Below, piece after piece: positions 114 through 37,438 of a DNA stretch of 64,000 nucleotides. Position 1 is the stretch's first letter; every line of letters begins with the position of its first letter. A program made the position numbers and the translations under genes. The DNA comes from an uncultured Pseudomonadota bacterium (GTDB taxonomy: Bacteria > Pseudomonadota > Alphaproteobacteria > RF32 > CAG-239), in contig CADBEI010000002.1 of the NCBI GenBank assembly GCA_902793695.1, positions 10,771-74,770 of the forward strand. Reading direction: 5' to 3'. Under the pieces are notes generated by a model. It ran no database searches, was not told where the DNA came from, and saw only the letters and a list, made by a program, of their open reading frames with translations.

Positions 114-1016
114 TTAGGTTACTTCGGTAATGGCGCGTTGGTTACCCATACGTTGAATTTGCACCACATGCAGTTTACGTCGCATTTCATCAAGCGTTTG
201 CTCCACGTTTACGGCGCCGTTGGTTGAGGCCATAATACGCTTAATAAATTGCAAATACGCTTCTTGTGAACTTTCCGCGTGGATGGTGGCAAAGCAATTA
301 TCGTGACCGGAACCCATCAGCTGCCAAATACCGCTGGCATAATCAATATCATTGGTTTGGTTAGTACGAGACATCACGAGGTGAACACGATTCGGGTGAG
401 GCACAATCAACTCACGAGTATCTTCAACCGTAATAATTCGTTTGTGAATATCCAAAATTTTCAGCAAATTATTTAAAAAAGTAGTTTTACCGGTTGATGT
501 TGCGCCGGACACCAAAATGTGTTCACCTCGCTTTATATACAGAAGAAGCCGTTCATAAGCATCGTCCGGTACCTTAATATCTTTAAGCGGATTGAGCTTC
601 ATGAGGGCTTGCCCCTGCTTCATTCCGTAATCTTCGAGACCGAAAGCGACGTCATCGGCGTGAAGACGAATAGCCAAAGCGATACCGCCGGTTAAATCTT
701 CTTCATCATACATGACGTTCCTCCCGCAGATTGCGGAAAAACGGTGATCCCCCGGAATTGTTGCATAAACAAACGGAGAACCTTGTAACGGATCAAACTC
801 CAACTCATAAGTATTGGCAATGATATAGAGTAAATCCGTTAAATATTCTTTTGAAAGCTTTTCATCTTTATACATAACCCACGGATAGGCGCGCTTTCCA
901 CGCATACGGAGCCATATCTGGCCGGCGCGATTTATGGCAACCTCCTCCAGATTATCCTGATTATACCAATAGGATAAAGGTCTTAAAACTGATTCCAATA
1001 CCGAAAAATCACTCAT
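114..1016 (-). CDS. virB11: VirB11-family T4SS traffic ATPase
   Basis: Track ORF is 114..1124. I prefer the internal ATG at 1016 (MSDFSVLES...), 10 nt after the virB10 TAG stop and preceded by GAGAAGGA. Walker A GATSTGKTT, Asp box ITVEDTRELI and His box FATIHA are typical of VirB11/T2SSE ATPases. It is the last gene of the virB-like operon. Confidence 0.85.
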   Translation of the reverse strand: MSDFSVLESVLRPLSYWYNQDNLEEVAINRAGQIWLRMRGKRAYPWVMYKDEKLSKEYLTDLLYIIANTYELEFDPLQGSPFVYATIPGDHRFSAICGRNVMYDEEDLTGGIALAIRLHADDVAFGLEDYGMKQGQALMKLNPLKDIKVPDDAYERLLLYIKRGEHILVSGATSTGKTTFLNNLLKILDIHKRIITVEDTRELIVPHPNRVHLVMSRTNQTNDIDYASGIWQLMGSGHDNCFATIHAESSQEAYLQFIKRIMASTNGAVNVEQTLDEMRRKLHVVQIQRMGNQRAITEVT

Positions 1017-1026
1017 TATCCTTCTC

Positions 1027-4000
1027 CTAAAACATATTTTCCTCGCCCGTACCCAAATCAGGTATGTCGCTATTGCTGTCAATAGCAGGCGGAGGTTGTG
1101 TCGGGTAATTGTTCTGCGGAGCATTTGACGACGGCTGAGAACTCAGGCCTCCCCTGTTTGGTTGCGGTGCCGATACCGGCTGATAATTACCTTGATTATT
1201 GCCGTCATAAGTAACTTCAACATTATCAGCGTTGGCGCCACCATCTGAAAATACCGTGGCTTCTCTGTTGTCATTGCTGTCTCCGTTTCGACCTCTGGTA
1301 CGCCGCGAGCGCTCTTCGTTGTTGAGCCACAAATCCTGATTCGGATAAATTATGATACGCGTGCCGGCCGGAACATAAGCCACGGATTTAATAGCTTGCT
1401 TTCTCTTAATTATATCGTTAATGATTTTCGTAATTTGATCATTAACCTGATTTCGGGCATCTGACATTGCCTCGCTGCGTGCATCTTGCGTTGTGGTTGT
1501 TCCGTTGCTGTTGGTGGTAGAAGTAGAACCATCACCTGATGCCATGGCTATGTTAACCAAGCCTTGTAACGCCGTCGATACGATAGGGAAAGTGTAGCGC
1601 TTCATCAACTGCTCATCCAAATATCCGATAGCACCGGCGCGTCCTTGAGCATCTGCGGTTTGAGCACTGCTAAATCTCCATTGTGAACCATCCGGTCGAA
1701 TAAGACGCTTCCACGTAATATTGATTTTGACCGCACCACCGCTTTCGCCGGAAAGACTATCGCTTTTATTATCAAGACTGCCGATAACTCTCGAGCCGGC
1801 CGGAATAATAATGTTACGCCCTTCTTCCGCAAATACGTTGCGTTCAACAATTGCGGTTACCGGAATCTTTTCTCCCAAGCCGTCGGAAGCATAAACCGAA
1901 CGCGCCAAAACCGCCGGAATTCCCTTATCCTCGAGAATCATCTCACTCATATCAACACGCCAAGAAGATATCTGATTGCCTTGAGGTCCGCCATCCCAAC
2001 CGTCTTCTTCATAGCCGGTAAATACGGACGGATCATATTCTTTCTCTTGTGGCGTTGATATATAACTCTTTAATTGTGAATACATATTCATTCGGCGATT
2101 GTTTTGATAATTCATTACCAAAGCAGCACGTTCCGGACTTAATCTTCCGCCCGGTCCGGTACCTCCGTCAGGACCGACATCGGGTTGTTCCTTGGTATCC
2201 CAAGCTCCGGCCGTTTCCGGAATAAATATAGATGGTTTATTTATTTCAACGGTACCGACAGGGTTATAATTTGTATCAACCACCAAATTATCTTGTCTGT
2301 ATCCGATAACTTCACCATTTTTACCGATAACTTCTCCGTTATCATAAACGTCTCCCATATATTCGCCGGACGGATCAATAAAGAAACCCACAATTTTATT
2401 TCTGTTGCTTCTGCCAGATCGACGAACCGTTACTCCGGTTTCCGGTTTTTGCGTGTCTAATTCTTCCGTTTCATTCGGTATTATGGTAGTAATACTCGGA
2501 CGTCTGCGTTTCCTATCCGCTTCCGGCACCGGTTTGTTGGTGGCGATATAATACTGATATGGTGTGGCCTGCGCAATCTCATTGCCATCGGCATCATGAA
2601 TGGCACCGTTTTCTTTTAAATATCCGATATTTGCTCCTTCGGCATTGACTACCGTATCATTGAGTTGCAACTCACCGACTACGTTATTACTGCTGTCTCT
2701 GACAATATAATCACGATTACCGCGGGCAACAACTTCGCCACGACGAATCACAAAGCCGCGATCCAATTTGCCAAGCTGACTACCGACCATACTCAGCACC
2801 GTACCGTCTTTGGTTAAATAACCGTAAACTACGAAGTTATCGTCATAAACATAGAAATCATACAAGGCATATCCGATATTTGCCCCTTCATATTCAACAC
2901 TGCCGTCAAAATTAATTTGCCCGACAACTCTGTCGCCACTATCTCTGACCTGTCCCGCACCGTCAATCATTCCCAAGAATGTATTGTTGTTTCTGTATGC
3001 AACCTTATAGCGCATCACATTTCCCAAATTCCTTTTGGAGGTAGAAACAACGTTACCGTTCGGCTGCATATAGCCCACCGTCGAGTCGTCGCTGTTAATA
3101 ACCTTACCGGTTGCCAACACATGACCGAAAATCCGATTTTCAAAGTCAATAACCGGCTCCGGTAAAATCACACCATAGCGCTGATGATGTTCCTCGTCCG
3201 TAATTATACCACGACGATCGACACATCCGATATTTTTTCCCTCGGCATTTCTACCGGTTGCACCGCTGACCGTACCGCTGAAATTACCGTCAAAATCTAT
3301 CAAACCGTGTTGCTGTACCGAATAACCGATATAATTACCGACATCGGAAATAGCTTGTCCGTTCGGCAAAATGTGTCCGCTGATAACATCGTGATTATCA
3401 ATGACATCGCCCTTGCCGTCAACCACGCCGATAATACTGCATTTATCGTTGACTACCGTGGAGAACGGTACTAATTTGCCGTTAACAATATCGTTATTAT
3501 CGGTAACATATTCATTATATATCACATGGCCGGCAACATCACCGTTAGTGCCGATAACATTACCTTCGCTGTCGGCATAACCGATTAAGTCGCCGCCGGT
3601 ATTCAAAGCGATAAGTTTGTTACCGCTGAAGCCTTTAATCGGTGAGGTTAACGGAGAAAGCTTATCTTTGGTTTCTACCACATACCCTCCCGGAATAACT
3701 TTATAAGCAATATTCCCCGATTGATCCAAAAGCAGGTTGCTATCTGCAAATGTACCGAGCGGCTTACCGTCATAATCCAAAGCATAACGCGGATTCAAGA
3801 TTTCACCGACAAAGTTTTTACCATCTTGAACTATTCCGGAGCCGGTCAGATGTGTGCCACCCGCACGATATAACGCCCCGTTGGGATCTACGTATGAATA
3901 TAATACACCTTCCGGACCATATACCGCAGAAAGTGAGTATCCGGTGCCGACCGGCTTGCCGTCAGCATTAATCACATAGCCGAACGGTGAAATGTGAACT

Positions 4001-5229
4001 ACCGAGCCACCGACAACCACACCGGCATCAATATTGGAAATACCTACCGGACCATTGTTTTCAAAGGCAATCATACCGTCAACCGTTCCGCCGAGAAGCG
4101 TACCGTTGGTGCTGTACGCCATATTGCCCGACATTTGTCCGATATTCCCGCCGCCGAGCGAAATTACGCGGCCGTTTTTCATACTCTGCCCTTTTAGGCG
4201 CGCCATACTGTCATAAATCGGTCCGGTTTTTACCAAATCGCCGATTTTATTACCGTTTTTATCGTAAACATAACCTTTAGCACCGATATGACCGATAACT
4301 TTATCTCCGTGCATAATATTGCCGTTCGGTGCCAGGTAACCCAAATATTTGCCTGCATTATTATTGGCTGTGGCGGCAATGTCTGCGGCAAACCCGATTA
4401 CATCGCCGGAATCATTTATTAATTTGCCGTCAGCACGATATCTGGCAATTACTTTATCGCCGTCTTTAACTTCACCGTTATAGCCGACTATTCCCAAATA
4501 TTTTCCGGCTTGCGTAAAAGCGTAGCTTGTGGAAATAACGCTGCCGATAACTTTGTCTTGAGCATCATAGGCATAACCGTTGGCGTGAATTTTGCCGACG
4601 GACTTTCCTTCAAAATCAATAATCTGACCGGTAGGCGCTATACTGCCGATAAACTTACCGTCAACCGAAACCACCATTTTGGAAGACATAAGTTTGCCAT
4701 CCAAGATATAGTCTTCGCCGGATTTGCGATAAGCATAGCCGTTGGCGGAAACAAAACCGATGTGTTTTCCTTCCAGCTTCGTATATTCGCCGCCGCCGGT
4801 CAAACGTCCGATAGCTTCTCCGTTTGGCGAATAAATAATTCCCGGATACAGCACCGCACCGATTACATTTGAATTATCATTGATAACCAGTCCGTTAGGT
4901 AAAGATTTACCCAGCGTTTTACCGCTCAAACTGCGCACTACGCCGTCACTGTGAATTTTTCCGAGCAAGCGGTTATCCATACCGATGACAACACCTTGCG
5001 GCACAACACCGCCGATAACTGCTCCGTGTTCGCTCATAATCAAACTGTCAGCCGTAACATATCCTATATTATCGCCATCGGGATTTATAACAATACCGGT
5101 GGAAATTACCTGTCCGATAATATCTCCGTTAAAATCAATAGCCGTAATCTCAGCGGCATAACCGTTGAGTGGCAGGAACATTCCCGCTAAGAATAATATA
5201 TTTTTGGCTTTTCTTATTATTCTCAACAT
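1027..5229 (-). CDS. virB10: Giant VirB10/TrbI-family protein (1400 aa) with a ~1000-aa N-terminal repeat module
   Basis: aa ~1090-1300 match the VirB10/TrbI C-terminal domain (IPAGSRVIGS, INITWKRLIRPDGSQW, DAQGRAGAIGYLDEQL, VPAGTRIIIYPNQDLW). The N-terminus is a hydrophobic signal/anchor (ILFLAGMFLPLNGYAAE). aa ~30-1000 are degenerate units ending in G-x-I/V-G. The start lies 2 nt after the stop of the upstream gene. Confidence 0.8.
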   Translation of the reverse strand: MLRIIRKAKNILFLAGMFLPLNGYAAEITAIDFNGDIIGQVISTGIVINPDGDNIGYVTADSLIMSEHGAVIGGVVPQGVVIGMDNRLLGKIHSDGVVRSLSGKTLGKSLPNGLVINDNSNVIGAVLYPGIIYSPNGEAIGRLTGGGEYTKLEGKHIGFVSANGYAYRKSGEDYILDGKLMSSKMVVSVDGKFIGSIAPTGQIIDFEGKSVGKIHANGYAYDAQDKVIGSVISTSYAFTQAGKYLGIVGYNGEVKDGDKVIARYRADGKLINDSGDVIGFAADIAATANNNAGKYLGYLAPNGNIMHGDKVIGHIGAKGYVYDKNGNKIGDLVKTGPIYDSMARLKGQSMKNGRVISLGGGNIGQMSGNMAYSTNGTLLGGTVDGMIAFENNGPVGISNIDAGVVVGGSVVHISPFGYVINADGKPVGTGYSLSAVYGPEGVLYSYVDPNGALYRAGGTHLTGSGIVQDGKNFVGEILNPRYALDYDGKPLGTFADSNLLLDQSGNIAYKVIPGGYVVETKDKLSPLTSPIKGFSGNKLIALNTGGDLIGYADSEGNVIGTNGDVAGHVIYNEYVTDNNDIVNGKLVPFSTVVNDKCSIIGVVDGKGDVIDNHDVISGHILPNGQAISDVGNYIGYSVQQHGLIDFDGNFSGTVSGATGRNAEGKNIGCVDRRGIITDEEHHQRYGVILPEPVIDFENRIFGHVLATGKVINSDDSTVGYMQPNGNVVSTSKRNLGNVMRYKVAYRNNNTFLGMIDGAGQVRDSGDRVVGQINFDGSVEYEGANIGYALYDFYVYDDNFVVYGYLTKDGTVLSMVGSQLGKLDRGFVIRRGEVVARGNRDYIVRDSSNNVVGELQLNDTVVNAEGANIGYLKENGAIHDADGNEIAQATPYQYYIATNKPVPEADRKRRRPSITTIIPNETEELDTQKPETGVTVRRSGRSNRNKIVGFFIDPSGEYMGDVYDNGEVIGKNGEVIGYRQDNLVVDTNYNPVGTVEINKPSIFIPETAGAWDTKEQPDVGPDGGTGPGGRLSPERAALVMNYQNNRRMNMYSQLKSYISTPQEKEYDPSVFTGYEEDGWDGGPQGNQISSWRVDMSEMILEDKGIPAVLARSVYASDGLGEKIPVTAIVERNVFAEEGRNIIIPAGSRVIGSLDNKSDSLSGESGGAVKINITWKRLIRPDGSQWRFSSAQTADAQGRAGAIGYLDEQLMKRYTFPIVSTALQGLVNIAMASGDGSTSTTNSNGTTTTQDARSEAMSDARNQVNDQITKIINDIIKRKQAIKSVAYVPAGTRIIIYPNQDLWLNNEERSRRTRGRNGDSNDNREATVFSDGGANADNVEVTYDGNNQGNYQPVSAPQPNRGGLSSQPSSNAPQNNYPTQPPPAIDSNSDIPDLGTGEENMF

Positions 5230-5231
5230 TA

Positions 5232-8200
5232 TTAATTCCTCCTATTGCGTGCCACTTCCGGTAAACTGTATCCGGAAACGTTTTTATCGACATCGACAAA
5301 GGAGCCGTTACTCTTTAAGTATCCGACTTCGTTGTTTTGGTTGGAAATAACACGCCCCGTTGCCGACAATCTGCCGATATATTCGCCCTTATCCGACAAT
5401 ATGGTGTTACCGATGGTATAAACGTGCCCCATCAAATTGTTTTGATTATCTACCGCCAATCCGTCAGTCAAAATCTTACCGACAATCGAACCACCGGAGA
5501 ATACTTTACCATCAAAGCCGACAGTACCTTTAATGATGTCATCGCTGCCGATTATGATATCCCCGCTGACGATTTCGCCCAAAAACTTGCCGGTACTGCT
5601 GATAATTTTACCGTCAGGCATTGATTTACCGGCTACAATATGCTTGGTATCAAGGTATTCTCCGCTCAGAGTTGCCGTACCGACAATCTCACCTGCAGAA
5701 TTAATAACCGCACCCGATGATATTGCAACCAAATTACTGTTATTGCCTCCACCCGGCAGCAGTGCAGTAATTTCTTTACGATTGTTACCGACAATTACGC
5801 CCAAACTTGTGGCCAAACCTACCGGATTGCCGTATACGTCGACCATCACACTCTCCGGTAATACCTCGCCGATTATTTTACCTTCTTTAATCACAAATCC
5901 GTCCGGTGTAACGTTACCGGTAATCTCACCGCGACGATATTTACGATCTGAGCCGGATTTGATATTTTCAAGTTCTATCACTTTTCCGGTGGAAACCGCA
6001 TATCCCAGATAAGCACCGTCATACCCGCGAACGCTACCTTGTTTAACCGCGCCGCCTACCAGTCTGCCGCTCTCGTCGAACATTTGACCTTTGGTATTAA
6101 CTTTGCCGATTTTGGTACCTTTATAATCAACAACCGATAAGTCATAATTTATCACACCGATCTTATTACCGTTCATATCAACAACATGCGCCGGACGAAT
6201 TATTTTTGCTACGGCTCCGTTATAAAATCCGATATCGCCTGTATTGATGTTATCAACCACCACTCCCGCCGCATCATATACCAAACCGTCGGCAAATAAG
6301 TGACCGATTATATGTCCGGACGAATCTGCCAATATATTTATTTCCGGTACGGCATACCCGTATATTTTATTGTTCCTGTCCATAATCAGGTTATTGATAC
6401 CGACATATACCGCTCTGCCGTCAACCAAATCCAAGCGCCCTGTCTGATCCAACGTTCCGAGCGGTTTACCGTCAAATCCGTAAACATTTTTTGCATCGGA
6501 TACCTTACCGATATAAGCGGCATCGGCATCATACACATCACCGAAAGCATCGGCGCAACCGACAGCTTCACCTTCTTCGTCACGCAACAAACCGCTTTCA
6601 TCCAACATTCCGACCGGTTTCCACGTTTTGGCCGATATTACAAAACTCTTTTTAACCAAATGCCCTTTAATTTGCGGCTCATTCAAATCCAGTACCGTGC
6701 CATCCGGATTGATGCAACCCACTTCCTGATTATTGCTGTCGCGTACATAACCATCGGCCATAGCTTCACCGATATAAGCACAGTCATCATCATAAACACT
6801 TCCGGTTATCATAGCGCGTCCGGCAAAAGTACCTTCCGGTGTCCAGACCGTTTCGTCCGGATAAACTTTATATCCGGTTTCTTTGCCGTCACGACGGATT
6901 ATGCCGTCTTTATCCAGCTTTAAGCTATAATCGCAACCCCAGTTGACGATATAACCCTGTTTAACGCCTTTTGCCAGAATTTTGGCGCCGGATACATCCG
7001 TTGCCAATCCGTTCGGACGCATTTTACCGACAACCTTCTGCTGATTAACCACCTCACCACGGTTATTAATGGTACCGAGTAATTCGCCTGCCGGTGTAAT
7101 CGGCAGCAGCTGCTTATCAATTATTCCGCCGATGACTCGTTGTCCGAGAGTACGAGCATTTCCGTTTGCGTCAACGATACCGGCAATTTCACTGCCGTTA
7201 TGGATTAAACCGTCTTCACCGACATATCCGAAAACATTACCTTTATCATCTACCGCCAACTTAGCTTTGTTACCTTTACGACCGATGATATTTCCCTGAC
7301 CGTCAACTATATTGCCATTATCGTCAACGTGTCCTTTCAAACTGCCGTCAAAACCGAAAACATTACCATCATCGTCGATATAGCCGAGAGGATTTCCGTT
7401 TTCATCAACCACCAAATCTCTGCTATCGCTGAGATGTCCTATAACATCGCCGGAATAATCTTTACGGATAATCTGACCATTCTCATCCAATGTTCCGAGA
7501 AAAGAACCGTCAAAATTGTGTGCAACTCCGTTTTCATCAACAAAACCGATAAAATTGCCTTCTGTATCCAATGCGATTCGCATATCACCTTTACGGCCGA
7601 TAAGATTACCGTCATCGTCAAAAATGTTACCTTCTTCATCCGCGTGACCTATAAGATTGCCGTCAAAATCAAAAACATTGCCGTCCGGATCGATATAGCC
7701 GATGGCATTACCCTGACTGTCCACCGCTAAATCGCGCTGATAGCCGATAATATTGCCTTTTTCATCAACAATATTACCATTTTCATCTGCTTTGCCGATA
7801 ATAGAACCGTTCATATCGTGAGCAACTCCGTATTCATCGACATAGCCGATAACATTACCGTTGTCATCGACAATTAATTTAACTTTTTGCCCAACCGTGC
7901 CGATGACAGATATTTTCGGCTTATTACCTATAATATTACCGTCTTTATCAACATAGCCGATGATACTGCCGTTGTTGTCATGAACTCGGTTGTTTTCATC
8001 TATATAGCCAATAACATTACCGTCGTTATCTACTGCCAAATCGCGCCATTCATCGCTGACGTGCCCGATGATTTTGCCGCTTTTATCAATTACATTGCCA
8101 TCTTTATCAACCTTACCGATAAGATTGCCGTTAAAATCACGAACATTGCCGTTTTCATCGATATAGCCGATAATATTGCCGGCGTCGTCATACACCATTT

Positions 8201-9467
8201 GTGCCTGACCACCGCGTTTTCCGATTTTTTCATAGGTGGTAACCGTACCGTCGGCGTTCATATGCCCGACAACATTGCCATCGGCATCAACTACATCACC
8301 GTTAGGCATAACCACACCCAAAATATTACCGTCGGCATCCGTAACAACTTCACCGGCTTTAGCCACGCGGCCGATAATGTTGCCGTTTACGTCAATCACA
8401 TTGCCGTTTGCGTCCAAGCGACCGATTACGTTGCCGTCGGCATCAACAACCGTGCCGTCAGGAAGTACTTTGCCCAAAATATTGCCGTTGGCATCAACCG
8501 CAATACCGAAATCTACACCGCGACCGATTATTTTGCCGTTGACATCGACAATCGTGCCATCCGGAAGCATATTACCGATAACGTTACCTTCCATATCGTG
8601 CGCAACTCCGTTGGCATCAACATAGCCGATAACATTGCCGTTTTCATCCAAAATCAGCTTGCCGTTTGAAGCCACACCGATAATGTTGCCGTCTTTATCG
8701 ACAATCATTCCGTCAGCATTAAGTCTGCCGATTTCATTACCATTGGCATCACGGACTATACCATCATCGCCGATTGTGCCGATAATCTTACCGTCAGGGC
8801 CGACGGCATATCGCATACTGCCGTCAATAGATGTTTCCTCCGTACTGCTCGGACCGGTATCGCAATAGTTACAGTTTTCTTTGGTTACGGCGCTGCCGCG
8901 TACCGTTACTTCATCGTGCTTGGCGCTCTGTGCCGAAACATTGGTTTCGTGCCAAATAATTTTAAAGTTGTTCTGCACGTTGGCCGCCATTGTCGGTACC
9001 CATTTGGTCGTTACCATACAGGTTGCTTTTCCGCGCAGTTCTTTATTTTGACAATTTGAGGAATCATAGCTGAAACCATCAAACGGGGCCTCTTCAAGTT
9101 CCACCGACAAAATTCTGATTTCGCGTTTGCCGTTGGTACCTATTGTCAAAACATTGGTAGCTTCGTTACCCAAAACAATTTGCCCCATATTCAATTCGAG
9201 AGGTGACAATGTTATCGGGCGTTCTTCTTCGCTCGGATTGTCCCATTCCACGTCTTCAGGCACTTCCGTAGGTCTTATATTAACATCGGTTTCGGCAGAA
9301 ATTCCGTCTTGTTCAATTCTGACTTCACGCTCTTCTTCTTCGGTACCAGATGTTATTAACATCAAGGCAAACAAGAAAAACAAAAGAGCAATTATGCCGA
9401 TAATCAAAAAGATTTTATCGGTTTTTCTTACATATCTGTCTGATCTTGTTAACGGACCTTTACTCAT
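5232..9467 (-). CDS. 1411-aa bitopic membrane protein made of decapeptide D-x-x-G-N-x-I-G repeats, function unknown
   Basis: Long uninterrupted ORF with a basic N-terminus and one TM (IFLIIGIIALLFFLFALMLI). It carries dozens of units such as VDANGNILGK / LPDGTVVDAD / GNVIGRLDAN. Translationally coupled on both sides (3 nt after the virB9 stop, 2 nt before the virB10 start). Confidence 0.75.
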   Translation of the reverse strand: MSKGPLTRSDRYVRKTDKIFLIIGIIALLFFLFALMLITSGTEEEEREVRIEQDGISAETDVNIRPTEVPEDVEWDNPSEEERPITLSPLELNMGQIVLGNEATNVLTIGTNGKREIRILSVELEEAPFDGFSYDSSNCQNKELRGKATCMVTTKWVPTMAANVQNNFKIIWHETNVSAQSAKHDEVTVRGSAVTKENCNYCDTGPSSTEETSIDGSMRYAVGPDGKIIGTIGDDGIVRDANGNEIGRLNADGMIVDKDGNIIGVASNGKLILDENGNVIGYVDANGVAHDMEGNVIGNMLPDGTIVDVNGKIIGRGVDFGIAVDANGNILGKVLPDGTVVDADGNVIGRLDANGNVIDVNGNIIGRVAKAGEVVTDADGNILGVVMPNGDVVDADGNVVGHMNADGTVTTYEKIGKRGGQAQMVYDDAGNIIGYIDENGNVRDFNGNLIGKVDKDGNVIDKSGKIIGHVSDEWRDLAVDNDGNVIGYIDENNRVHDNNGSIIGYVDKDGNIIGNKPKISVIGTVGQKVKLIVDDNGNVIGYVDEYGVAHDMNGSIIGKADENGNIVDEKGNIIGYQRDLAVDSQGNAIGYIDPDGNVFDFDGNLIGHADEEGNIFDDDGNLIGRKGDMRIALDTEGNFIGFVDENGVAHNFDGSFLGTLDENGQIIRKDYSGDVIGHLSDSRDLVVDENGNPLGYIDDDGNVFGFDGSLKGHVDDNGNIVDGQGNIIGRKGNKAKLAVDDKGNVFGYVGEDGLIHNGSEIAGIVDANGNARTLGQRVIGGIIDKQLLPITPAGELLGTINNRGEVVNQQKVVGKMRPNGLATDVSGAKILAKGVKQGYIVNWGCDYSLKLDKDGIIRRDGKETGYKVYPDETVWTPEGTFAGRAMITGSVYDDDCAYIGEAMADGYVRDSNNQEVGCINPDGTVLDLNEPQIKGHLVKKSFVISAKTWKPVGMLDESGLLRDEEGEAVGCADAFGDVYDADAAYIGKVSDAKNVYGFDGKPLGTLDQTGRLDLVDGRAVYVGINNLIMDRNNKIYGYAVPEINILADSSGHIIGHLFADGLVYDAAGVVVDNINTGDIGFYNGAVAKIIRPAHVVDMNGNKIGVINYDLSVVDYKGTKIGKVNTKGQMFDESGRLVGGAVKQGSVRGYDGAYLGYAVSTGKVIELENIKSGSDRKYRRGEITGNVTPDGFVIKEGKIIGEVLPESVMVDVYGNPVGLATSLGVIVGNNRKEITALLPGGGNNSNLVAISSGAVINSAGEIVGTATLSGEYLDTKHIVAGKSMPDGKIISSTGKFLGEIVSGDIIIGSDDIIKGTVGFDGKVFSGGSIVGKILTDGLAVDNQNNLMGHVYTIGNTILSDKGEYIGRLSATGRVISNQNNEVGYLKSNGSFVDVDKNVSGYSLPEVARNRRN
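7190..8825 (-). repeat. Most regular part of the coding repeat array (~30-nt units, higher-order ~45-50-codon period)
   Basis: Protein aa ~215-760 read as consecutive 10-residue units. A recurring super-unit reads LAVD..GN.IGYID..G.V.D..G..IG..D..GNI.D..GN.IG. At DNA level 7811-7870 and 8591-8650 are ~52/60 identical by hand count. Confidence 0.7.
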
Positions 9468-9470: not shown

Positions 9471-11072
9471 CTATTGCACCCTGACTACACTACAAAATAC
9501 TCCGTTGCGCCCTAATTGACTGCATACCGCGTCTCCGCTGTCCAAACTTTTGACCGGACCGATACGCAGGTGAAACAATTCCTTACCCTGTCCGTCTGCC
9601 GGAGCGTCAACCGAATAAAACGGTTCATACCCGCCCAGCAATGAAGAATAACGTCCGGATAAATCATGCCACAACGCTTCCAAATTGTTCACATTGGAGT
9701 CTGTTCCCAATTCTATCGACAGAACGTCCGAAGTTTGGCCTTCAAAGCCGCTGCCGTAACGATATTGTGATTGAATGTTTCTGAATTTCGGATCATCACT
9801 GAAACTGAGCGGAGTCATACCATTGCAATCCGCATCTTTAGCCGATGACGAAGACGAAGCAGATCCCGCGCCGAAACTGCCGGCCGCACCGTTAGGCATA
9901 TATACGCCACCATTGCTGTCAACTCTTACGGCGCCATTGCCGTTATTTGAAGCTCCGCTGCCGTTACCGGATGCATTTCCGGTTCCGTTTGCCCCGCCGC
10001 TGCCGTTTGTTATGCCGCCCGGAATTGCCGGCGCAACATCCCACTCATTACTGGTATCGGCATAGGTAACATATTGTGTTCCCTCATCATCGGAACGACG
10101 CATTTTCAAGCATACCATACGTTTACCGCTACGCATAACCATATCGCCGACACCTTCCACAATAATCAGTCGGTTATTCGGCCCTTTGGTACGAAAACCT
10201 ACCGGTGTTTCCGAGCGTTCGATAATCATTGTTACAATCGGACGCTGTACCATATTTATGGCCTTTTCGCCCAGATCTATATAAGTGAAAATATCATCAT
10301 GCCATACCCGTTCCGGTGCAATAATCACATCATCCGGATTCGGAACATAGATTTCCATATCAAAACGAAACTTTTCCGGATCCATCGGAATACTTCTGAG
10401 CCAGTCTTCTTTCAAAAAACGTCTGGTGTAGGTGGCATCAACTCTTTTATTGTTATTGTCAAATCCGATACCGCCCGAACTGCCGCCTATCTTGCCGCCC
10501 CTGGGACTACCTCCCGATGCGCCGTTTTGGTCGACAACATCAATATCTATGATGGAATTGGTAATTCTTTCGGAGTTGACGCCCTCTCCGCGAACATAAA
10601 ACACATATTTGTTACCGGATCTGCCGAAAACAATCAGGTTGGTATCGCTGCCTACGGCATAAGGCGTTACCGGATACAGCATAAGCGAACTCGGTTTGCT
10701 GATTTTTCCGCCGAAATTCGCCGGGTCACCCAGTTGTGCATCTTCAATTAATTCCCACTCCGGAAAATTAATCAAGGTCATCATACCCTCACGCAAACGA
10801 ATCGGCAACACCAAATCAGGCGACCAATAATATTTTGAATAAGCCGGCTTGCTTTGTCCTTCGCCTAAATTCTGCAGAGGATCTTGCCAAGCTTCCTGAA
10901 ACATACCGGTACCGAATCCGGTGTATGTCATATTTTGGGCAGGATAATTACCCTGTGTTTGATCTGCCGATTGGTTCAAACTGTCATCGCTGACCAAACC
11001 TGCGGCATACAGGTTTTGCATAAATAACATTCCCGTAATCGTTAATATCAATGTTTTAATGCTCTTTCTCAT
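9471..11072 (-). CDS. virB9: VirB9/CagX/TrbG-family protein with G/S/N-rich linker and C-terminal SPOR-like domain
   Basis: Signal peptide (LILTITGMLFMQNLYAAG). The N-terminal half resembles VirB9 (YYWSPDLVLPIRLREGMMTLINFPEWE..., NLIVFGRSGNKYVFYVRGEG). aa ~345-420 are a low-complexity G/S/N/A linker. The last ~80 aa look like SPOR (LSIELGTDSNVNNLEALWHDL..., FHLRIGPVKSLDSGDAVCSQLGRNGVFCSVVRV). Confidence 0.75.
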   Translation of the reverse strand: MRKSIKTLILTITGMLFMQNLYAAGLVSDDSLNQSADQTQGNYPAQNMTYTGFGTGMFQEAWQDPLQNLGEGQSKPAYSKYYWSPDLVLPIRLREGMMTLINFPEWELIEDAQLGDPANFGGKISKPSSLMLYPVTPYAVGSDTNLIVFGRSGNKYVFYVRGEGVNSERITNSIIDIDVVDQNGASGGSPRGGKIGGSSGGIGFDNNNKRVDATYTRRFLKEDWLRSIPMDPEKFRFDMEIYVPNPDDVIIAPERVWHDDIFTYIDLGEKAINMVQRPIVTMIIERSETPVGFRTKGPNNRLIIVEGVGDMVMRSGKRMVCLKMRRSDDEGTQYVTYADTSNEWDVAPAIPGGITNGSGGANGTGNASGNGSGASNNGNGAVRVDSNGGVYMPNGAAGSFGAGSASSSSSAKDADCNGMTPLSFSDDPKFRNIQSQYRYGSGFEGQTSDVLSIELGTDSNVNNLEALWHDLSGRYSSLLGGYEPFYSVDAPADGQGKELFHLRIGPVKSLDSGDAVCSQLGRNGVFCSVVRVQ

Positions 11073-11087: not shown

Positions 11088-11840
11088 TTAATCTTTGATT
11101 TGTTTGACCGTGTATGTCATAACCGTGAATCCCACAGGATTTTTTAGTCTTTCTTTGTACGAAACGCGTTGCGGAACATACTGTATGCGCATACTGGCGC
11201 GATATCTCAATTTCTTTGGCGTATACGATGACGGCAGATAATAGTCCACGCTGTATTCAACCTGCCACACAGCCTCGGAAATTTCATTCACCGTGATGAT
11301 CGTAACATTACTGGTTAAGCCGTCCTCTTTCATTCGTTTCATCAACTTCGGGCCGGTTTCACTCATAAATTCCTGATACACAATCGGAGACGACATCTTT
11401 TGCAAATCGCCGCCGTTTTGCCACCGCGCTTCCATCTCTTCAATATCCGAAAGCAATGTCGTACGCAACAAAACATATTGACGAATAAATGTTTCCGTAA
11501 TGGATTTTTTGGCCTCCATATCGCGGCTGTACGGAACAATATTGTAGACCTGTTCGGCCTTGTTGGATAAGGTCAGTAAATACGGTTCAACCCGATACAG
11601 CGGAAGAATGGCAGATATTGTCAGCAACAAAATCAGATTGCAGCATAAACTGATGGCTGTAACAACTGCAAAGGCGCGTGCTGTCCATAAATATCTTCTT
11701 TCACTGGCATTAACCACCAAACTGTCTTCATCGCGTGCGATTTCCCGCTGAATAGCGGTACGGGCACCTTGTGCCGGACGTCTTTGTCCGGAGGCGATTA
11801 GCTTTTGCTGTGTGTTATTTACCCCTAACTGATCCGCCAT
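11088..11840 (-). CDS. virB8: VirB8-family protein, paralog 2
   Basis: 250 aa with a cytoplasmic N-terminus, a single TM (AFAVVTAISLCCNLILLLTISAILPL) and a periplasmic domain with a VirB8-like FIRQYV motif. Clearly paralogous to 12192..12944. Confidence 0.7.
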   Translation of the reverse strand: MADQLGVNNTQQKLIASGQRRPAQGARTAIQREIARDEDSLVVNASERRYLWTARAFAVVTAISLCCNLILLLTISAILPLYRVEPYLLTLSNKAEQVYNIVPYSRDMEAKKSITETFIRQYVLLRTTLLSDIEEMEARWQNGGDLQKMSSPIVYQEFMSETGPKLMKRMKEDGLTSNVTIITVNEISEAVWQVEYSVDYYLPSSYTPKKLRYRASMRIQYVPQRVSYKERLKNPVGFTVMTYTVKQIKD

Positions 11841-11855: not shown

Positions 11856-12044
11856 CTATATTGTTTCCCAAAACCAATCCGGTACGTTTTTAATGACATC
11901 AATTTGCATACAGGCACAAGGCGACAACTTCAGCTCATTGATGTCCTTACCGATTCCCACGGCTTCCGGTTCATAATACGAACCGAACAAACTGCAAGCC
12001 GACAGAATTAAAAGTATAGCAAAAATCAAAAATTTTTTATACAT
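11856..12044 (-). CDS. virB7: Small lipoprotein, VirB7-like by size, lipobox and position
   Basis: 62 aa with signal peptide and lipobox LILSAC|S. It sits immediately upstream of virB8/virB9. No sequence motif beyond the lipobox. Confidence 0.5.
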   Translation of the reverse strand: MYKKFLIFAILLILSACSLFGSYYEPEAVGIGKDINELKLSPCACMQIDVIKNVPDWFWETI

Positions 12045-12191: not shown

Positions 12192-12944
12192 TTATTCTCT
12201 TATTTCACTTTGGTTATATTTAATCACCGTAAACCCTATCGGATTTAACAATCTGGTTCTTAACAAGCGCCGTTCGGGAATATAGGCCGGCGTTATTGAC
12301 GCTTTGTAGCGCATTGTCTTCAAGGTTAACGAACCGGATGAATTGCGCGCTTTAGACAGATTAAAAGTGGTAAACGTCACTAACCACGCCGGTGAATCTT
12401 CGCTTTCTTTGCCGATTTTATCAATCTGAACTTCGCTGGAGTAGCCGTTATCGAACATTTTATCAATTGTTTTCACGTTCTTACCGACAAAATCCCAATA
12501 AACTTCCGGTGACGACATATATTGTACAATCCCTCCCGGTCCCCAACGTGTTCGCATTTCCTGCTCATCATTAATCACCGTATTACGCACAATGATATAT
12601 TGCCGTATAAACATCTCGGTAAGTTGTTTTTCTGAAGGCATTTTTTTATCAATCGGCTCATAACGAACAACATTTTCCGAATCTTTTTGATTGATTATCA
12701 AGAGCGGTTCCACCACAATTTCGCGTGACAGTCGGAAAATTACCAAAGTAGAACTCAAAAAGAACCCGAGCGAAATGATGGCACACAAAATAACCAAACG
12801 CGACAACCATCTGAAGTAAACCTCCTTACTGGATGTTGTTTCTTGTCTGACATCGTTGATAAAATGCGGTCGGTAACCGGCATTTGATTTCCGATTACCA
12901 TCCGCTATTAAAATACGCTTTGCGCCATCTCCCAGCTGAGCCAC
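12192..12944 (-). CDS. virB8: VirB8-family protein, paralog 1
   Basis: 250 aa with the same architecture as 11088..11840 (TM VILCAIISLGFFLSSTLVIF). Shared motifs are MFIRQYIIVRNT / TFIRQYVLLRTT and NPIGFTVIKY / NPVGFTVMTY. Confidence 0.7.
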   Translation of the reverse strand: MAQLGDGAKRILIADGNRKSNAGYRPHFINDVRQETTSSKEVYFRWLSRLVILCAIISLGFFLSSTLVIFRLSREIVVEPLLIINQKDSENVVRYEPIDKKMPSEKQLTEMFIRQYIIVRNTVINDEQEMRTRWGPGGIVQYMSSPEVYWDFVGKNVKTIDKMFDNGYSSEVQIDKIGKESEDSPAWLVTFTTFNLSKARNSSGSLTLKTMRYKASITPAYIPERRLLRTRLLNPIGFTVIKYNQSEIRE

Positions 12945-12965: not shown

Positions 12966-15900
12966 TTAATAACGTGGATATACACCACAATACGGGCGCA
13001 AATGACGTTTTAAGCGACTTATACGCTCTCTGTCCTGTTCCTTAGCCGTTTCGGAAACAACTTTCCAATCGGCATAGGCTTTCTTTATTTTCTCGTCCAT
13101 TTCCGTGCAATCCAGCTCGCCTCCGTCAATCGAACATTCATCACCGATAATCATTACCAAATCTCCCGGATAGTCGTCAATACCCAGTTTTTCTTTGGCA
13201 TACTCCGGAGTATCATATTGATACAACATGGCAGAACGCATAACTTCATTACGGCGGAGATTTATGGTTTCGAGCGCCTCACCTTCGCTTTCTACTTCGT
13301 TTTCTCCTTCGCCTTCTTTTTTGACGGTTGTTGCTTTTACTTCCGACAACTTATTCATAGCGCTTGCAATCGCCGCATCTTTTTCTTCCTGCAGTTTCTG
13401 GCGCAAGCGTTTATAATCTTCCGACTGACACTCGACGAATCTTTCGATTTCTTCGGTATTTTCTTCCTCGTCAAATTTATCCATATCTATTTCGCATGCC
13501 ATATTGAAGTCTTCGCCGAACACAAAATCCGCATCTTTTAAAACTTCAGCCAATTCGAGTTCTGTGGTTTTAGCTTTTTTCTCCGCGTTGAGAAGATTAT
13601 TTTGCGTAATGCGCATTATTTCAATCTGCTCAAGATAATCGCCGAGTTGATTTTTCTCCAAGAAAACCCGATTTGTCGCATCTTTAAGCGAAGTTTCTTC
13701 TTCGTGCCCCTCTTGACCGTAGTCTTCTACTGCCGTATACAAGGCGCGTACCAAAACATCATTGAAAGTCAGACGCATAACACCGTTGGCAACTTCATCT
13801 TTGCATTCAGGAGTTTCGGCCATACATTGCGGATTGCCGTGGCATTTTGAGATGCAAGCTTCCTCATCGTGATGAATGACAATAGCCTGATTATACAGAT
13901 TTGGCAACACCGGCGGGAACCCCGAATGACGCATGGTGTCTTCTTCATTATAATATGTGATGATATTGCTGAGTTCGCTCACTTCCGTATAATCGGCACC
14001 GCCGTACGGATATACAAAATCGTAGGTATGATTATCCATCAGTGCGCTGGCTTCTTTATCATAAATTTTGATTCCCTCGCCGGTTTCCGGTTTCTCTACC
14101 CGTACTTGCAGTGCCTGGCACTCCGGTACAGCCGCAATTTTTTCGGCAACACTGGCATCTTCCACCGTCAACAGTGTAGAAAATCTCAACCACTCCGGAT
14201 GTTTGGTAACACGCGCTTCCAACGGTACCGGATATCTGACTGTTCCGCGCGTGTTCTTTTCCAACGGTGTATTCGGAACGGCATATTGGAAATTGCTGTT
14301 AATATCAATAAAGTACTGAATAGGCACGCCGGTAGACGTGTTATTCGCGTTCATATATGTTCTGCCCGTCGGCTTACCCTTCATATCGTATTCATAAGAA
14401 CGACACGGATACAAACCGGAGCGTCGAACTTCCTGCTGGGCACGAAGTGCATTGACTCTGTCTTCTTCATTTGTGCCGTTTTCAACACCGATAAGTTTAG
14501 CTAAATCAAATTGTTTCTGAACATAGGTACGCGGCAACAATATATATTTCCACCACCGCGGCATAATGGCATTTCTCGCAGCATCCTCGCCCTCAATATA
14601 GTTATCGGTGGAATTAATATTGGTATTCGGAGCGCTGAGCAATTCCTTCAAAAAGAGACGACGACTGAAGAACATAAGCTTATTCATACCGCGTTCTACC
14701 GGAATATCATCGTCCGAAACTTTATGATATATTGAAATAGCATCAAAATCATCGCGGGAAAAGTGGAAAGCTTCACGCAGGAACATACCGTCATCTCCTA
14801 TACCGCAGCCGATAGGATACGGTGCCATAAAGTCACGCGGCTGTCCGATTAGGCCCACAAAGTAACCGCCCGGTTCTTCATCATCGTCGCTCGGTTCCTT
14901 AATATTATCACAAGATTCTTGATCTCGGTCACTCTCAAAATCAAGTTCCACCGGTGCCTCTTTACATTTTTCGGCATTTTCTCCGCAGATTGATTCAAAC
15001 ACATTGTTTGACATCACGGAAGAAAAGCCCGGAATCTCCGGTAAACCGCCACATTCTGCCGGACTGAATTTGAGTAAATATTCATCAAACAGTGCACGAT
15101 GCGATTTGAGAATACTTCTGCATTTCGGAGCTTTGGTAAAGTTTACATAGTTCCTTACGGAATAATTGTAACCCATACACGGTTCTTTATATTCCTTTTC
15201 CCATTCTTCCACCTTCTTTACCAGTTTTTCACGCACGCAAGTCAAAAATTCTCCGGCTCCCGGCAATATTGTCGAAAAATCAATATTCTGGCCATTTACC
15301 GATATGGATGTAGGGCTGAATGATGCTCGAGCTGCTCTCATATTTTGGGCGGCGTTTCTCATATTCAGCATTTCGATATATTCGGCATCGCTCATATCTT
15401 TGATGTATTGATGATGGGCTTCAGCCAATTTTTCATCGAGTTCTTCTATTTTTTCTTTGCACTTTTCGATTTCATCCTCATATCTTTTGGCTTCTTCTTT
15501 GGCCTCATCTTTTTTGGTTTGAGCCGCTTCCGCTATTTCTTTGGAATCATCTTCAAGTTTTTTGAAATTCTTCGACTGCGGAGTTTCGTCCGGATTAACG
15601 TCGTCACGTCCGGCATCTTCATACAATCTGCGGTTGGCATCTTTAGCCGTTTGCGAGGCTTCTTCAACCAGTTTGGCACTTCCGACTTCACGAGTCATCT
15701 GATTATATTCGCTGTTTTTCTTGCTTAATTTTCCGGCGAATTCTTCTTTTTTCTCAACCCACTCTTTTCTCTTTTTCACCCAAGGTTCAATTTTTTTCTT
15801 ATATTTTTTATCAATTTGCACGAACATCGCATCTTGTGCTTCAATCATTTTTTTAATCTCTTTTTGTTCGTTTTCTTGATAAGTTTCCAATGCTTCTTTT

Positions 15901-18335: not shown

Positions 18336-18350
18336 TGTACCCTCCCTCAA

Positions 18351-30217: not shown

Positions 30218-30952
30218 ATGAAACAAAATATTAAAGGAAAAACAATGACAAACAAATTTGCGATTACCGGCTTGGTATGCTGTATTCTGGGTACAGCCGG
30301 TTGTGTCAGCAACAATAACCAGCGCCCGATGCAAGGATATCCGGACGAACAGTGCAGTGACGGCATATGCACCAGCAACAGCGAATATACTGCAGTATGC
30401 GTCGAAAACGCGGCAGGGTACAGCGAATGCACCGATAACGCTCCGGTTAACTATACCAGAACGCAGGCTGATTTCCGCTCCTATGGCGAAAGAACGGCGC
30501 GTGATCATCGTATTACACAGGCCGCGGCCGGAAACAATATCTCTGCAACCGTTATGCCGAGCATAAATGACGAAGTAGTCGAATACGAAGCTGAGGTTTC
30601 GGGAAATCCGCAGACAACACCGGCACAAGTTCAGCAGTTTGAAGCCATTGATAATGAGCCGGCAGAAGAATATGCCGATGATCCTAATCGCGATTGGTTG
30701 GCAGAAGAAGGTCAGAGTTTGAAAGATTTATTAGTTCAGTGGAGTGACGAAGCCGGTTGGCGGCTGATTTGGAAGACAAATCGTAATTATACGCTGAACG
30801 CCGGCGCAATGTTCCGTGGCAACTTTGCCGATGTGGCATCTGCGCTCGTCAGGGCTTTTGCCCGTGCAAAACCGGCACCGATTGCCACTTTCTATAAAGG
30901 TAACCGCGTTCTGGTAATTGAAACAATGGAGGACGAAAATGCGTATGACTAA
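30218..30952 (+). CDS. TcpQ/PilL-like pilus lipoprotein
   Basis: Lipobox ILGTAGC|V. The C-terminal domain (SLKDLLVQWSDEAGWRLIWKTNRNYTLNAGAMFRGNFADVASALVRAF...ATFYKGNRVLVI) matches the TcpQ/PilL pattern of type IVb pilus systems. Confidence 0.6.
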   Translation: MKQNIKGKTMTNKFAITGLVCCILGTAGCVSNNNQRPMQGYPDEQCSDGICTSNSEYTAVCVENAAGYSECTDNAPVNYTRTQADFRSYGERTARDHRITQAAAGNNISATVMPSINDEVVEYEAEVSGNPQTTPAQVQQFEAIDNEPAEEYADDPNRDWLAEEGQSLKDLLVQWSDEAGWRLIWKTNRNYTLNAGAMFRGNFADVASALVRAFARAKPAPIATFYKGNRVLVIETMEDENAYD

Positions 30953-32546: not shown

Positions 32547-32567
32547 CACTTATAAGGGAGAAAACCA

Positions 32568-35658: not shown

Positions 35659-35670
35659 CATATAAATACT

Positions 35671-37425: not shown

Positions 37426-37438
37426 GAGATAACGGAAA

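What the first reader, a model, noticed from the sequence alone, without database searches (positions are those of the whole stretch)
5232..9467. 1411-aa bitopic protein built from >50 'D-x-x-G-N-x-I-G' decapeptides, wedged between virB9 and virB10
Seen: a basic N-terminus and one TM, an acidic linker, then a ~150-aa non-repeat region with five Cys (SNCQNKELRGKATCMV...KENCNYCDTGP). Repeats then run to the C-terminus. They are most regular in aa ~215-760 (VDANGNILGKVLPDGTVVDADGNVIGRLDANGNVIDVNGNIIGR...). A ~45-50-aa super-repeat starts with LAVD..GN.IGYID. The gene is translationally coupled to virB9 (3-nt gap) and virB10 (2-nt gap), which implies co-expression as a machine component. Its N-in single-TM topology mimics the N-terminus of a classical VirB10, and the repeat family is shared with the neighbouring VirB10. 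Inference: it arose by duplication or exchange with virB10 and is a structural partner. I cannot place the repeat in a family. It is only vaguely reminiscent of YD/Rhs-type beta-hairpin repeats and lacks the YD signature.
Basis: partly seen in the sequence, partly recalled or inferred. Interest (0 to 1): 0.8.

Follow-up and report, generated by a model that had tools for sequence, protein, structure and literature searches.

The report
Inner-membrane half of a split VirB10
This 1411-residue repeat protein is the inner-membrane-anchored front half of a giant type IV secretion protein (VirB10) that one clade of uncultured gut and rumen Alphaproteobacteria encodes as two adjacent genes, so the subunit normally thought to bridge both membranes as one chain is here made in two pieces.

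Summary
The ORF is real (window 5232..9467, minus strand, 1411 aa) and lies between virB9 and a TrbI-domain virB10, with 3-nt and 2-nt gaps. The repeat can be placed in a family. It is the beta-flower fold (Pfam PF21785, PF21784 and DUF3659), built from roughly 17-residue hairpins rather than decapeptides.

The first 215 residues are a cytoplasmic tail, one TM helix, an acidic linker and a PapD/ASH-like Ig domain with 4 invariant Cys. They align collinearly with the N-termini of 2000-2430-aa single-chain VirB10s of a sister clade, which sit at the same locus position (virB9-virB10-virB11).

In at least 65 species-level genomes the gene is instead split. The split junction is conserved. The N-half ends ..NRRN*, and its last codons form the Shine-Dalgarno site for the C-half. 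The C-half starts with a Sec signal peptide (AxA|(A/Q)EITA(I/V)DFNG).

dN/dS is 0.05-0.09. On a TrbI-domain tree the split and fused forms are reciprocally monophyletic.

Best reading: a conserved, functional two-gene VirB10. The target supplies the cytoplasmic and inner-membrane modules plus about 13 periplasmic beta-flower modules. Physical docking to the outer-membrane half is inferred, not shown. This is a new variant of a known kind.

The parts
5232..9467 (-). Whole target ORF, 1411 aa plus stop: the N-terminal half of a two-gene VirB10
9414..9467 (-). Cytoplasmic tail, aa 1-18, net charge +4. Holds the conserved S-x-[DE]-x-Y-[VI]-[KR]-K-[ST]-N motif (Y12 invariant)
   Evidence: Alignment A1. 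The motif is shared with fused VirB10s
9351..9413 (-). Single transmembrane helix, aa 19-39, N-in
   Evidence: AF2 helix 9-39. The orientation follows from the positive-inside rule read from the sequence
9216..9350 (-). Acidic, disordered periplasmic linker, aa 40-84
   Evidence: pLDDT below 50 for aa 41-81. The region is variable in A1
8853..9215 (-). PapD/ASH/MSP-like Ig beta-sandwich (aa 85-195) plus a CxxC motif (aa 199-202). Four Cys are invariant
   Evidence: Foldseek match to the HYDIN PapD-like domain 2e6j, E 3e-6, TMt 0.69. Pfam ASH E 0.0022, below the curated cut-off. Invariant columns
8028..8822 (-). R1, aa 216-480: conserved block of about 15 regular 17-aa hairpins, roughly 3 beta-flower modules. 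Most constrained part of the protein (dN/dS 0.03-0.07)
   Evidence: Collinear with aa 239-407 of the closest fused VirB10, P0037
7188..8027 (-). R2, aa 481-760: the roughly 50-aa super-repeat block. Its copy number varies among orthologues and accounts for their length differences
5235..7187 (-). C block, aa 761-1411: conserved, degenerate beta-hairpin body with about 70 strands and 4 invariant Cys. Predicted to be one rigid unit
   Evidence: AF2 pLDDT 88, pTM 0.84. Collinear and anchored to the C-terminus in all orthologues
5227..5243 (-). Split junction: AGGAGGAAT-TAA-TA-ATG. The last codons (R-R-N) of the target form the Shine-Dalgarno site for the downstream half
   Evidence: Conserved as cGGAGGAAyTAr in 41 species loci
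1027..5229 (-). Downstream C-terminal half of VirB10, 1400 aa: signal peptide, beta-flower array, TrbI domain (aa 1098-1302, nt 1324-1938), disordered tail
5155..5229 (-). Predicted Sec signal peptide of the C-half, aa 1-25, with cleavage at GYA|AEITAIDFNG
   Evidence: Read from the sequence. Across species the leader is variable and the mature N-terminus is conserved. No signal-peptide predictor was available
9471..11072 (-). Upstream VirB9 (CagX domain) with a C-terminal SPOR domain
   Evidence: A VirB9 homologue lies upstream of the target-like gene in 86 of 86 loci

Best explanation
The target is the N-terminal, inner-membrane half of a VirB10 that this clade encodes as two adjacent, translationally coupled genes.

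Shown:
- It keeps the VirB10 modules that a sister clade has at the start of a single 2000-2430-aa VirB10. These are the cytoplasmic tail with a conserved SxxxYVKKxN motif, one N-in TM helix, an acidic linker and a disulfide-type Ig domain.
- About 1200 residues of beta-flower hairpin repeats follow, roughly 13 modules.
- The TrbI/VirB10 outer-membrane barrel is on the next gene. That gene has swapped the membrane anchor for a Sec signal peptide.

Inferred mechanism:
- The tail and TM helix contact the inner-membrane complex and ATPases (VirB4, VirD4, VirB6, VirB8), as the VirB10 Cyto and IM sub-domains do in R388.
- The beta-flower array stands in the periplasm as a rigid spacer or scaffold.
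- Its conserved C block docks non-covalently onto the beta-flower array of the exported C-half, which forms the outer-membrane core complex with VirB9 and a VirB7-like lipoprotein.
- This would rebuild the IM-to-OM bridge from two chains.
For: - Pfam places the repeats in the beta-flower families. PF21785 scores 234.6 bits (cut-off 38), PF21784 scores 124.4 and DUF3659 scores 85. The target has no TrbI domain, while the downstream ORF has TrbI at aa 1098-1302.
- Residues 1-206 align collinearly with residues 1-202 of more than 75 TrbI-bearing proteins of 2000-2430 aa (E down to 5e-28). The window's own VirB10 gives no hit. Thirteen columns are invariant, including Y12, G24 and four Cys.
- The locus position is the same in both forms. 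Fused loci read VirB8-x-VirB8-VirB9-[2290-aa VirB10]-VirB11. Split loci read VirB9-[target-like]-[about 1400 aa with TrbI]-VirB11.
- 217 species genomes carry the split-type N module. The split was verified in 65 of the 80 genome loci from that scan. VirB9 lies upstream in 86 of 86 loci.
- The junction, its Shine-Dalgarno site and the signal peptide are conserved in 41 species.
- On a TrbI-domain NJ tree, 67 split and 32 fused tips are reciprocally monophyletic.
- dN/dS is 0.05-0.09.
- AF2 predicts the TM helix, the Ig domain, the hairpin array and a rigid C block with pTM 0.84.
- The roles of the VirB10 sub-domains are taken from the review PMC12624023.
Against: - No interaction between the two halves was tested, because no multimer prediction or coevolution analysis was run.
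- The repeat arrays of the two halves do not map collinearly onto fused VirB10s. The break point cannot be located, and fission cannot be told from duplication with reciprocal loss.
- The summed length of the two halves is about 2600-2800 aa in the six loci summed and reaches about 3500 aa in some species. That exceeds the fused proteins at 2000-2430 aa.
- The signal peptide of the C-half is judged by rule only.
- There are no expression data.
- The polarity (fused form ancestral) rests on parsimony against classical VirB10s, because the tree was midpoint-rooted.
Confidence: 0.72

Rival explanations
1. The target is a T4SS accessory scaffold that no longer works with the C-half. After the split (or a duplication) it became an independent inner-membrane-anchored periplasmic spacer or cell-wall-associated scaffold. 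It could, for example, organise the VirB8 arches or hold the machine in the peptidoglycan. The signal-peptide VirB10 then functions without an IM link.
For: [quoted passage not shown]
- VirB9 in this locus carries a peptidoglycan-binding SPOR domain.
- The most constrained part of the target is R1, next to the membrane, rather than the C-terminus.
- The C-half has its own export signal.
Against: - The C block of 651 aa is conserved, rigid and collinear in all orthologues, which suggests a specific partner.
- The adjacency and coupling to the C-half are strict in all 65 verified loci.
- The review PMC12624023 describes VirB10 as linking the IM ATPases to the OM gate.
Confidence: 0.17
2. The target is a surface-exposed or host-interacting variable repeat protein, analogous to the CagY repeat regions. 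On this view R2 copy-number variation serves antigenic or functional tuning.
For: - R2 varies in copy number among species and has the highest dN/dS, 0.07-0.17.
- CagY is a known precedent for a giant repeat-bearing VirB10 (my own knowledge; it is named as the VirB10 homologue in PMC12624023).
Against: - The N-in TM anchor and the absence of a cleavable leader keep the protein tethered to the inner membrane.
- All segments are under strong purifying selection.
- The DNA repeats are only 60-77% identical, with no long identical tracts that could drive recombination.
- The eight invariant Cys fit a periplasmic fold.
Confidence: 0.05
3. The split is an artefact or a pseudogene: a frameshifted or mis-assembled single giant virB10.
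For: The two ORFs are adjacent, lie in different frames and share the same repeat family.
Against: - The same junction is found in at least 65 independent species-level assemblies.
- The junction has a conserved Shine-Dalgarno site and start codon, and a signal peptide absent from the fused proteins.
- dN/dS is 0.05-0.09.
Confidence: 0.01

Closest known systems
Single-chain giant beta-flower VirB10s of sister gut and rumen Alphaproteobacteria (for example P0037, 2290 aa). NCBI labels them only as 'hypothetical' or 'DUF3659 domain-containing protein'
   Same: They share a homologous N-terminal tail, TM helix and Ig module, the beta-flower array, and the locus position between virB9 and virB11.
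   Different: They carry the TrbI barrel on the same chain. The target stops before it, and a second gene with its own signal peptide continues.
Classical VirB10/TrwE/TrbI (Pfam PF03743), a bitopic IM protein that reaches the OM
   Same: Both have a short cytoplasmic tail and one N-in TM helix. The operon position and the presumed IM-complex contacts also match.
   Different: The target has no TrbI barrel. It has no proline-rich linker either (2.3% Pro). About 1200 aa of beta-flower repeats and an Ig domain take the linker's place.
Beta-flower fold proteins (PF21784, PF21785, PF21786 and DUF3659; clan CL0395, which also holds the Tubby C-terminal domain; Durairaj et al. 2023, PMC10584680)
   Same: The Pfam hits lie far above the cut-offs. 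[DNEQ]xxG sits at the hairpin tips. The short antiparallel strands have no PDB counterpart.
   Different: The described examples are mostly single domains of about 96 aa, some of them lipoproteins. Here about 13 modules are fused in tandem into a T4SS subunit, and the C block is predicted as one rigid body.
CagY (Helicobacter) and DotG/IcmE (Legionella): VirB10 homologues enlarged by internal repeats. DotF is an IM-anchored partner of DotG. (My own knowledge; the homologies are listed in PMC12624023.)
   Same: The principle is the same: a repeat-expanded VirB10 in an enlarged T4SS. As an IM-anchored periplasmic protein encoded beside the VirB10 barrel protein, the target would work like DotF.
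   Different: The repeat folds are unrelated (as I recall, helical Cys-containing repeats in CagY and pentapeptide repeats in DotG). CagY and DotG remain single chains. As far as I know DotF is not derived from VirB10; I did not test this here.
Rhs/YD-repeat shells
   Same: Similarity is local, at the level of single beta-hairpins. Pfam RHS_repeat gives 1.3e-7 with no single stretch significant, and Foldseek gives E 7e-14 to Tse15.
   Different: TM-scores are only 0.07-0.10 and rmsd about 30 A, so the fold differs. I saw no YD motif, Rhs core or toxin end when reading the sequence.

Membership tests
Beta-flower fold (Pfam PF21785/PF21784; DUF3659 PF12396) | Profile match above the curated gathering score | tested here: met
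   PF21785 scores 234.6 bits against a cut-off of 38, in 9 stretches. PF21784 scores 124.4 against 25. PF12396 scores 85 against 24.8.
Beta-flower fold (Pfam PF21785/PF21784; DUF3659 PF12396) | Semi-conserved [DNEQ]xxG at the tip of short antiparallel beta-hairpins | tested here: met
   The motif occurs 100 times against 51 +/- 6 in shuffles. AF2 shows alternating 5-residue and 3-residue strands about every 17 aa.
Beta-flower fold (Pfam PF21785/PF21784; DUF3659 PF12396) | Closed shallow barrel of 8, 10 or 12 strands with 4-, 5- or 6-fold symmetry | not testable with these tools
   Only the secondary structure and confidence of the AF2 models are returned. No coordinates were available to count strands per barrel.
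VirB10/TrbI family (PF03743) | C-terminal TrbI/VirB10 beta-barrel domain | tested here: not met
   The target has no TrbI hit. The domain lies in the downstream ORF at aa 1098-1302.
VirB10/TrbI family (PF03743) | Short cytoplasmic N-terminus plus a single N-in TM helix | tested here: met
   Read from the sequence. AF2 helix 9-39. The region is homologous to the N-termini of TrbI-bearing VirB10s.
VirB10/TrbI family (PF03743) | Gene located between virB9 and virB11 in a virB-type operon | tested here: met
VirB10/TrbI family (PF03743) | Proline-rich periplasmic linker | tested here: not met
   Pro is 2.3% of the protein. An acidic linker, an Ig domain and the beta-flower array stand in its place.
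Rhs/YD-repeat proteins | YD repeats that form a closed shell, an Rhs core motif and a C-terminal toxin | tested here: not met
   The RHS_repeat hit has no individually significant stretch. Foldseek TM-scores are 0.07-0.10 with rmsd about 30 A.
ASH/PapD-like (MSP) Ig domain | Seven-to-eight-stranded beta-sandwich that matches the ASH profile or PapD-like structures | tested here: inconclusive
   Pfam ASH scores 18.5 bits, below the cut-off of 27. Foldseek does match HYDIN PapD-like domains at E 3e-6 with TMt 0.69.

The most novel reading that the evidence does not exclude
A whole clade of gut and rumen Alphaproteobacteria (at least 217 species genomes) runs a T4SS whose VirB10 is naturally cut in two. 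VirB10 is the one subunit thought to need covalent continuity from cytoplasm to outer membrane in order to sense ATP use and gate the channel. On this reading the two chains are held together only by contacts between giant beta-flower arrays (about 25 modules per pair), which form a previously unseen periplasmic superstructure. This would be the first assigned cellular role for the beta-flower fold. It would also be a natural experiment on whether VirB10 signalling needs one continuous chain.
Probability: 0.45. Interest if true: 0.75.

Novelty: new variant of a known kind. Interest (0 to 1): 0.6.

Why it matters
The 2025 review (PMC12624023) describes VirB10 as the key T4SS component. [quoted passage not shown]

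A conserved natural split shows that this clade can do without covalent continuity between the anchor and sensor end and the pore end. It is under strong purifying selection, and the pore half has gained its own signal peptide. That gives a natural system for asking how the signal crosses the periplasm.

It also gives the beta-flower fold, described in 2023 with no known function, a concrete context as the periplasmic body of a secretion-machine subunit. Finally, it points to a large and unstudied T4SS family in common gut and rumen commensals.

Tried and rejected
- **PDB sequence search.** The whole protein found nothing.
- **Mapping the break point onto fused VirB10s.** I tried whole-protein BLAST, 120-aa sliding windows, and junction peptides plus the EITA(I/V)DF motif. 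Only the N module, R1 and the TrbI end are collinear. The repeat arrays are too homogenised, so fission against duplication-plus-loss stays open.
- **Genome-contig scan with the mixed split-plus-fused alignment A1.** That scan therefore says nothing about how widespread the fused forms are.
- **Profile of the N module against 1.84 billion representatives.** Giant proteins with 10-39 tandem Ig domains dominated the hits. This shows the Ig module is common but adds nothing on VirB10.
- **Recombination-prone DNA repeats of the CagY kind.** No evidence for them was found. Repeat copies are 60-77% identical.
- **Rhs/YD membership.** Rejected.
- **Literature searches.** VirB10+DUF3659, VirB10+'gene fission' and RF32+'type IV secretion' returned nothing. 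CAG-239+'secretion system' returned two gut-microbiome surveys that I did not open. Of the 29 papers for VirB10+split+'two genes' I opened only the top hit. In that paper (Anaplasma ovis) virB10 is a single intact gene.


Full report
**1. The observation**

The ORF exists as described, at 5232..9467 on the minus strand, 1411 aa. It sits in a minus-strand virB-type operon with the following members:
- VirB2/TrbC pilin paralogues at 26907..27747
- VirB4 at 23729..26158
- four large ORFs without Pfam hits, in the position where VirB6 would be expected
- VirB8 at 12192..12944
- a 62-aa lipoprotein at 11856..12044
- a second VirB8 at 11088..11840
- VirB9 with a C-terminal SPOR domain at 9471..11072
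- the target
- a 1400-aa TrbI-domain VirB10 at 1027..5229
- VirB11 at 114..1124

The 3-nt gap after virB9 and the 2-nt gap before virB10 are correct.

The repeats are far beyond chance. D..G[NDSK].[ILVF]G occurs 30 times against 0.23 expected, and [DNEQ]xxG occurs 100 times against 51 +/- 6. The dominant spacing is 17 residues, not 10. At DNA level the spacings are 51 nt and 147-162 nt, which confirms the roughly 50-aa super-repeat. The non-repeat region has four Cys, not five.

**2. What the repeat is**

Pfam places it firmly in the beta-flower families. PF21785 scores 234.6 bits in 9 stretches, PF21784 scores 124.4 bits, and DUF3659 scores 85 bits. This fold was described only in 2023 from AlphaFold models. 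[quoted passage not shown]

My results agree with that description:
- The PDB sequence search found nothing.
- AF2 shows alternating 5-residue and 3-residue strands every 17 residues or so.
- Foldseek finds no PDB match for the repeat part. For the C block it finds only local hairpin similarity to Rhs and teneurin shells (E 7e-14, but TM 0.07-0.10 and rmsd about 30 A).

**3. What the protein is**

The homology search split into two groups. P0001-P0036 are proteins of 784-1581 aa (P0028 and P0029 lack the N module and look partial) that resemble the target and have no TrbI domain. P0037-P0120 are mostly 2000-2430 aa and carry both beta-flower repeats and a C-terminal TrbI domain, so they are giant single-chain VirB10s.

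The target's first 215 residues align collinearly (1-206 to 1-202, E down to 5e-28) with the extreme N-termini of more than 75 of these fused VirB10s. The window's own 1400-aa VirB10 gives no hit. Alignment A1 shows 13 invariant positions across both groups. They include Y12 in the cytoplasmic SxxxYVKKxN motif, G24 in the TM helix, and C139, C150, C199 and C202.

AF2 and Foldseek identify aa 85-195 as a PapD/ASH/MSP-like Ig sandwich (HYDIN 2e6j, E 3e-6, TMt 0.69). Pfam ASH gives only a weak hit.

Genomic context settles the relation:
- In fused-type genomes the order is VirB8-x-VirB8-VirB9-[2290-aa VirB10]-VirB11.
- In target-type genomes it is VirB8-x-VirB8-VirB9-[target-like]-[about 1400-1500 aa of beta-flower plus TrbI]-VirB11.

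**4. The split is conserved and functional**

A scan of one genome per GTDB species found 217 genomes with the split-type N module. All are uncultured gut, rumen or faecal Alphaproteobacteria, under names such as 'Azospirillum sp. 51_20', UBA1254, RUG and RGIG. The closest are Tb.RUG.243 (94%) and MAG-R073 (92%). From memory, GTDB places these in the RF32/CAG-239 lineage; I did not test that here.

- Of the 80 genome loci from that scan, 65 show the two-gene arrangement. The rest are cut off by the end of the contig or of the fetched stretch.
- VirB9 lies directly upstream in 86 of 86 loci.
- The junction is strikingly conserved in 41 species. ORF1 ends ..VA[KRQ]NRRN*, and its last codons spell cGGAGGAAyTAr, a Shine-Dalgarno site placed just upstream of the ORF2 start. 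The gap runs from -1 to +5 nt in all but one locus.
- ORF2 begins with a leader that varies in sequence but always has a basic stretch, a hydrophobic stretch and AxA. The conserved (A/Q)EITA(I/V)DFNG follows. That pattern is typical of a cleaved Sec signal peptide. I judged this by rule, since no predictor was available.
- dN/dS against four orthologues is 0.05-0.09 overall. dS is near saturation, so these values are approximate. R1 is the most constrained segment and R2 the least.
- On a midpoint-rooted NJ tree of the TrbI domain, 67 split and 32 fused sequences are reciprocally monophyletic. This fits a single event.

Every other known VirB10 is a single chain with an N-terminal TM helix and a C-terminal barrel (PMC12624023). 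Parsimony therefore makes the fused state ancestral.

**5. Architecture of the target**

| Segment | Residues | Description |
|---|---|---|
| Tail | 1-18 | Cytoplasmic, basic |
| TM | 19-39 | Single helix, N-in |
| Linker | 40-84 | Acidic, disordered |
| Ig domain | 85-205 | PapD/ASH-like sandwich plus CxxC |
| R1 | 216-480 | Conserved regular hairpins. In the sliding-window test, aa 241-420 are collinear with aa 239-407 of the nearest fused VirB10, P0037 |
| R2 | 481-760 | Super-repeat block. Copy number accounts for the 1013-1581 aa range among complete orthologues compared, and plausibly for ORFs up to 2734 aa |
| C block | 761-1411 | Collinear and C-terminally anchored in all orthologues, four invariant Cys |

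AF2 predicts the C block with pLDDT 88 and pTM 0.84. That points to one rigid body rather than beads on a string.

**6. How it most likely works**

Shown: the target retains the VirB10 modules that face the cytoplasm and the inner membrane, and the next gene retains the outer-membrane barrel and is exported separately.

Inferred, using the sub-domain roles described for R388 VirB10 (Cyto and IM contacts to VirB4, VirB3, VirB6 and VirD4; O- and I-layers in the outer-membrane core):
- The target anchors at the inner-membrane complex.
- Its beta-flower body spans or fills the periplasm.
- Its conserved C block docks onto the beta-flower array of the C-half, which rebuilds the envelope-spanning link non-covalently.

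The main rival is that the target has become an independent periplasmic or cell-wall scaffold. A CagY-like variable surface role is unlikely, given the membrane anchor, the strong purifying selection and the lack of identical DNA repeats. A pseudogene or assembly artefact is excluded.

**7. What could not be resolved**

- Simple fission could not be separated from tandem duplication with reciprocal loss. The repeat arrays do not map collinearly onto fused proteins, and the junction motif is absent from them.
- No interaction test was possible.
- No expression data are available.
- No model coordinates were available, so strands per barrel could not be counted.

**8. Novelty**

NCBI labels these proteins only as 'hypothetical' or 'DUF3659 domain-containing'. 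None of the eight listed titles in the beta-flower search concerns secretion systems, and I read only the 2023 Nature paper among them. Searches for VirB10+DUF3659, VirB10+'gene fission' and RF32+'type IV secretion' found nothing. None of the titles listed for VirB10+split+'two genes' or CAG-239+'secretion system' suggested a split VirB10. The library is incomplete, so this is absence within what was searched.

I rate it a new variant of a known kind. It is a VirB10 enlarged by a newly described fold and naturally divided into an inner-membrane half and an outer-membrane half.

Noticed in passing
window 11856..12044 (-): A 62-aa ORF between the two virB8 copies has a lipobox (LILSAC), so it is probably a VirB7-like lipoprotein. 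A gene of 62-70 aa sits at the same position in related loci L001 and L003-L006.
   Followed up: partly
window 9471..11072 (-): VirB9 (CagX domain, aa 79-323) carries a Gly/Ser/Asn-rich linker and a C-terminal SPOR (peptidoglycan-binding) domain. The SPOR hit is at E 8e-4, just under the Pfam cut-off. I do not recall this add-on in other VirB9s (not checked).
   Followed up: no
window 12966..22398 (-): Four consecutive large ORFs (1794, 451, 400 and 523 aa) lie between virB4 and virB8, where VirB6 would be expected. None has a significant Pfam hit. Equivalent unannotated genes of 1300-1400 aa occur in L001, L005 and L006. The paired virB8 genes recall Rickettsiales vir-homologue systems.
   Followed up: no
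window 30218..39111 (+): A type IVb-pilus-like cluster (TcpQ, secretin, PilO-like, T2SSE ATPase, T2SSF platform) lies next to the T4SS operon on the opposite strand. A further T2SSE-family ATPase lies at 39118..40089 (-).
   Followed up: no
window 26442..27747 (-): Two tandem VirB2/TrbC pilin paralogues (143 and 132 aa) lie upstream of virB4. A third ORF of 149 aa is a possible further copy.
   Followed up: no
window 1027..1300 (-) and 114..1124 (-): The VirB10 C-half ends in a disordered tail of about 90 aa, rich in Asn, Gln, Pro and Ser, after the TrbI domain. Its last ~98 nt overlap the longest reading of the virB11 ORF, so the true virB11 start is probably further downstream.
   Followed up: no
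loci L039, L085, L021 (N-half) and L059, L066 (C-half): Some species have much longer halves. The N-half ORF reaches 2314-2734 aa and the C-half 2081-2101 aa, so the beta-flower arrays expand independently in either gene.
   Followed up: partly
window aa 85-195 of the target; A profile of the N module hits 11,091 protein clusters. Most are giant proteins (up to 7259 aa) with 10-39 tandem copies of the same Ig-like domain. This is a very large family of ASH/PapD-like repeat proteins.
   Followed up: no
window 62001..64000: GC content drops to 0.31 against 0.40-0.48 in the rest of the window. No ORF of 120 aa or more was listed beyond 61908.
   Followed up: no
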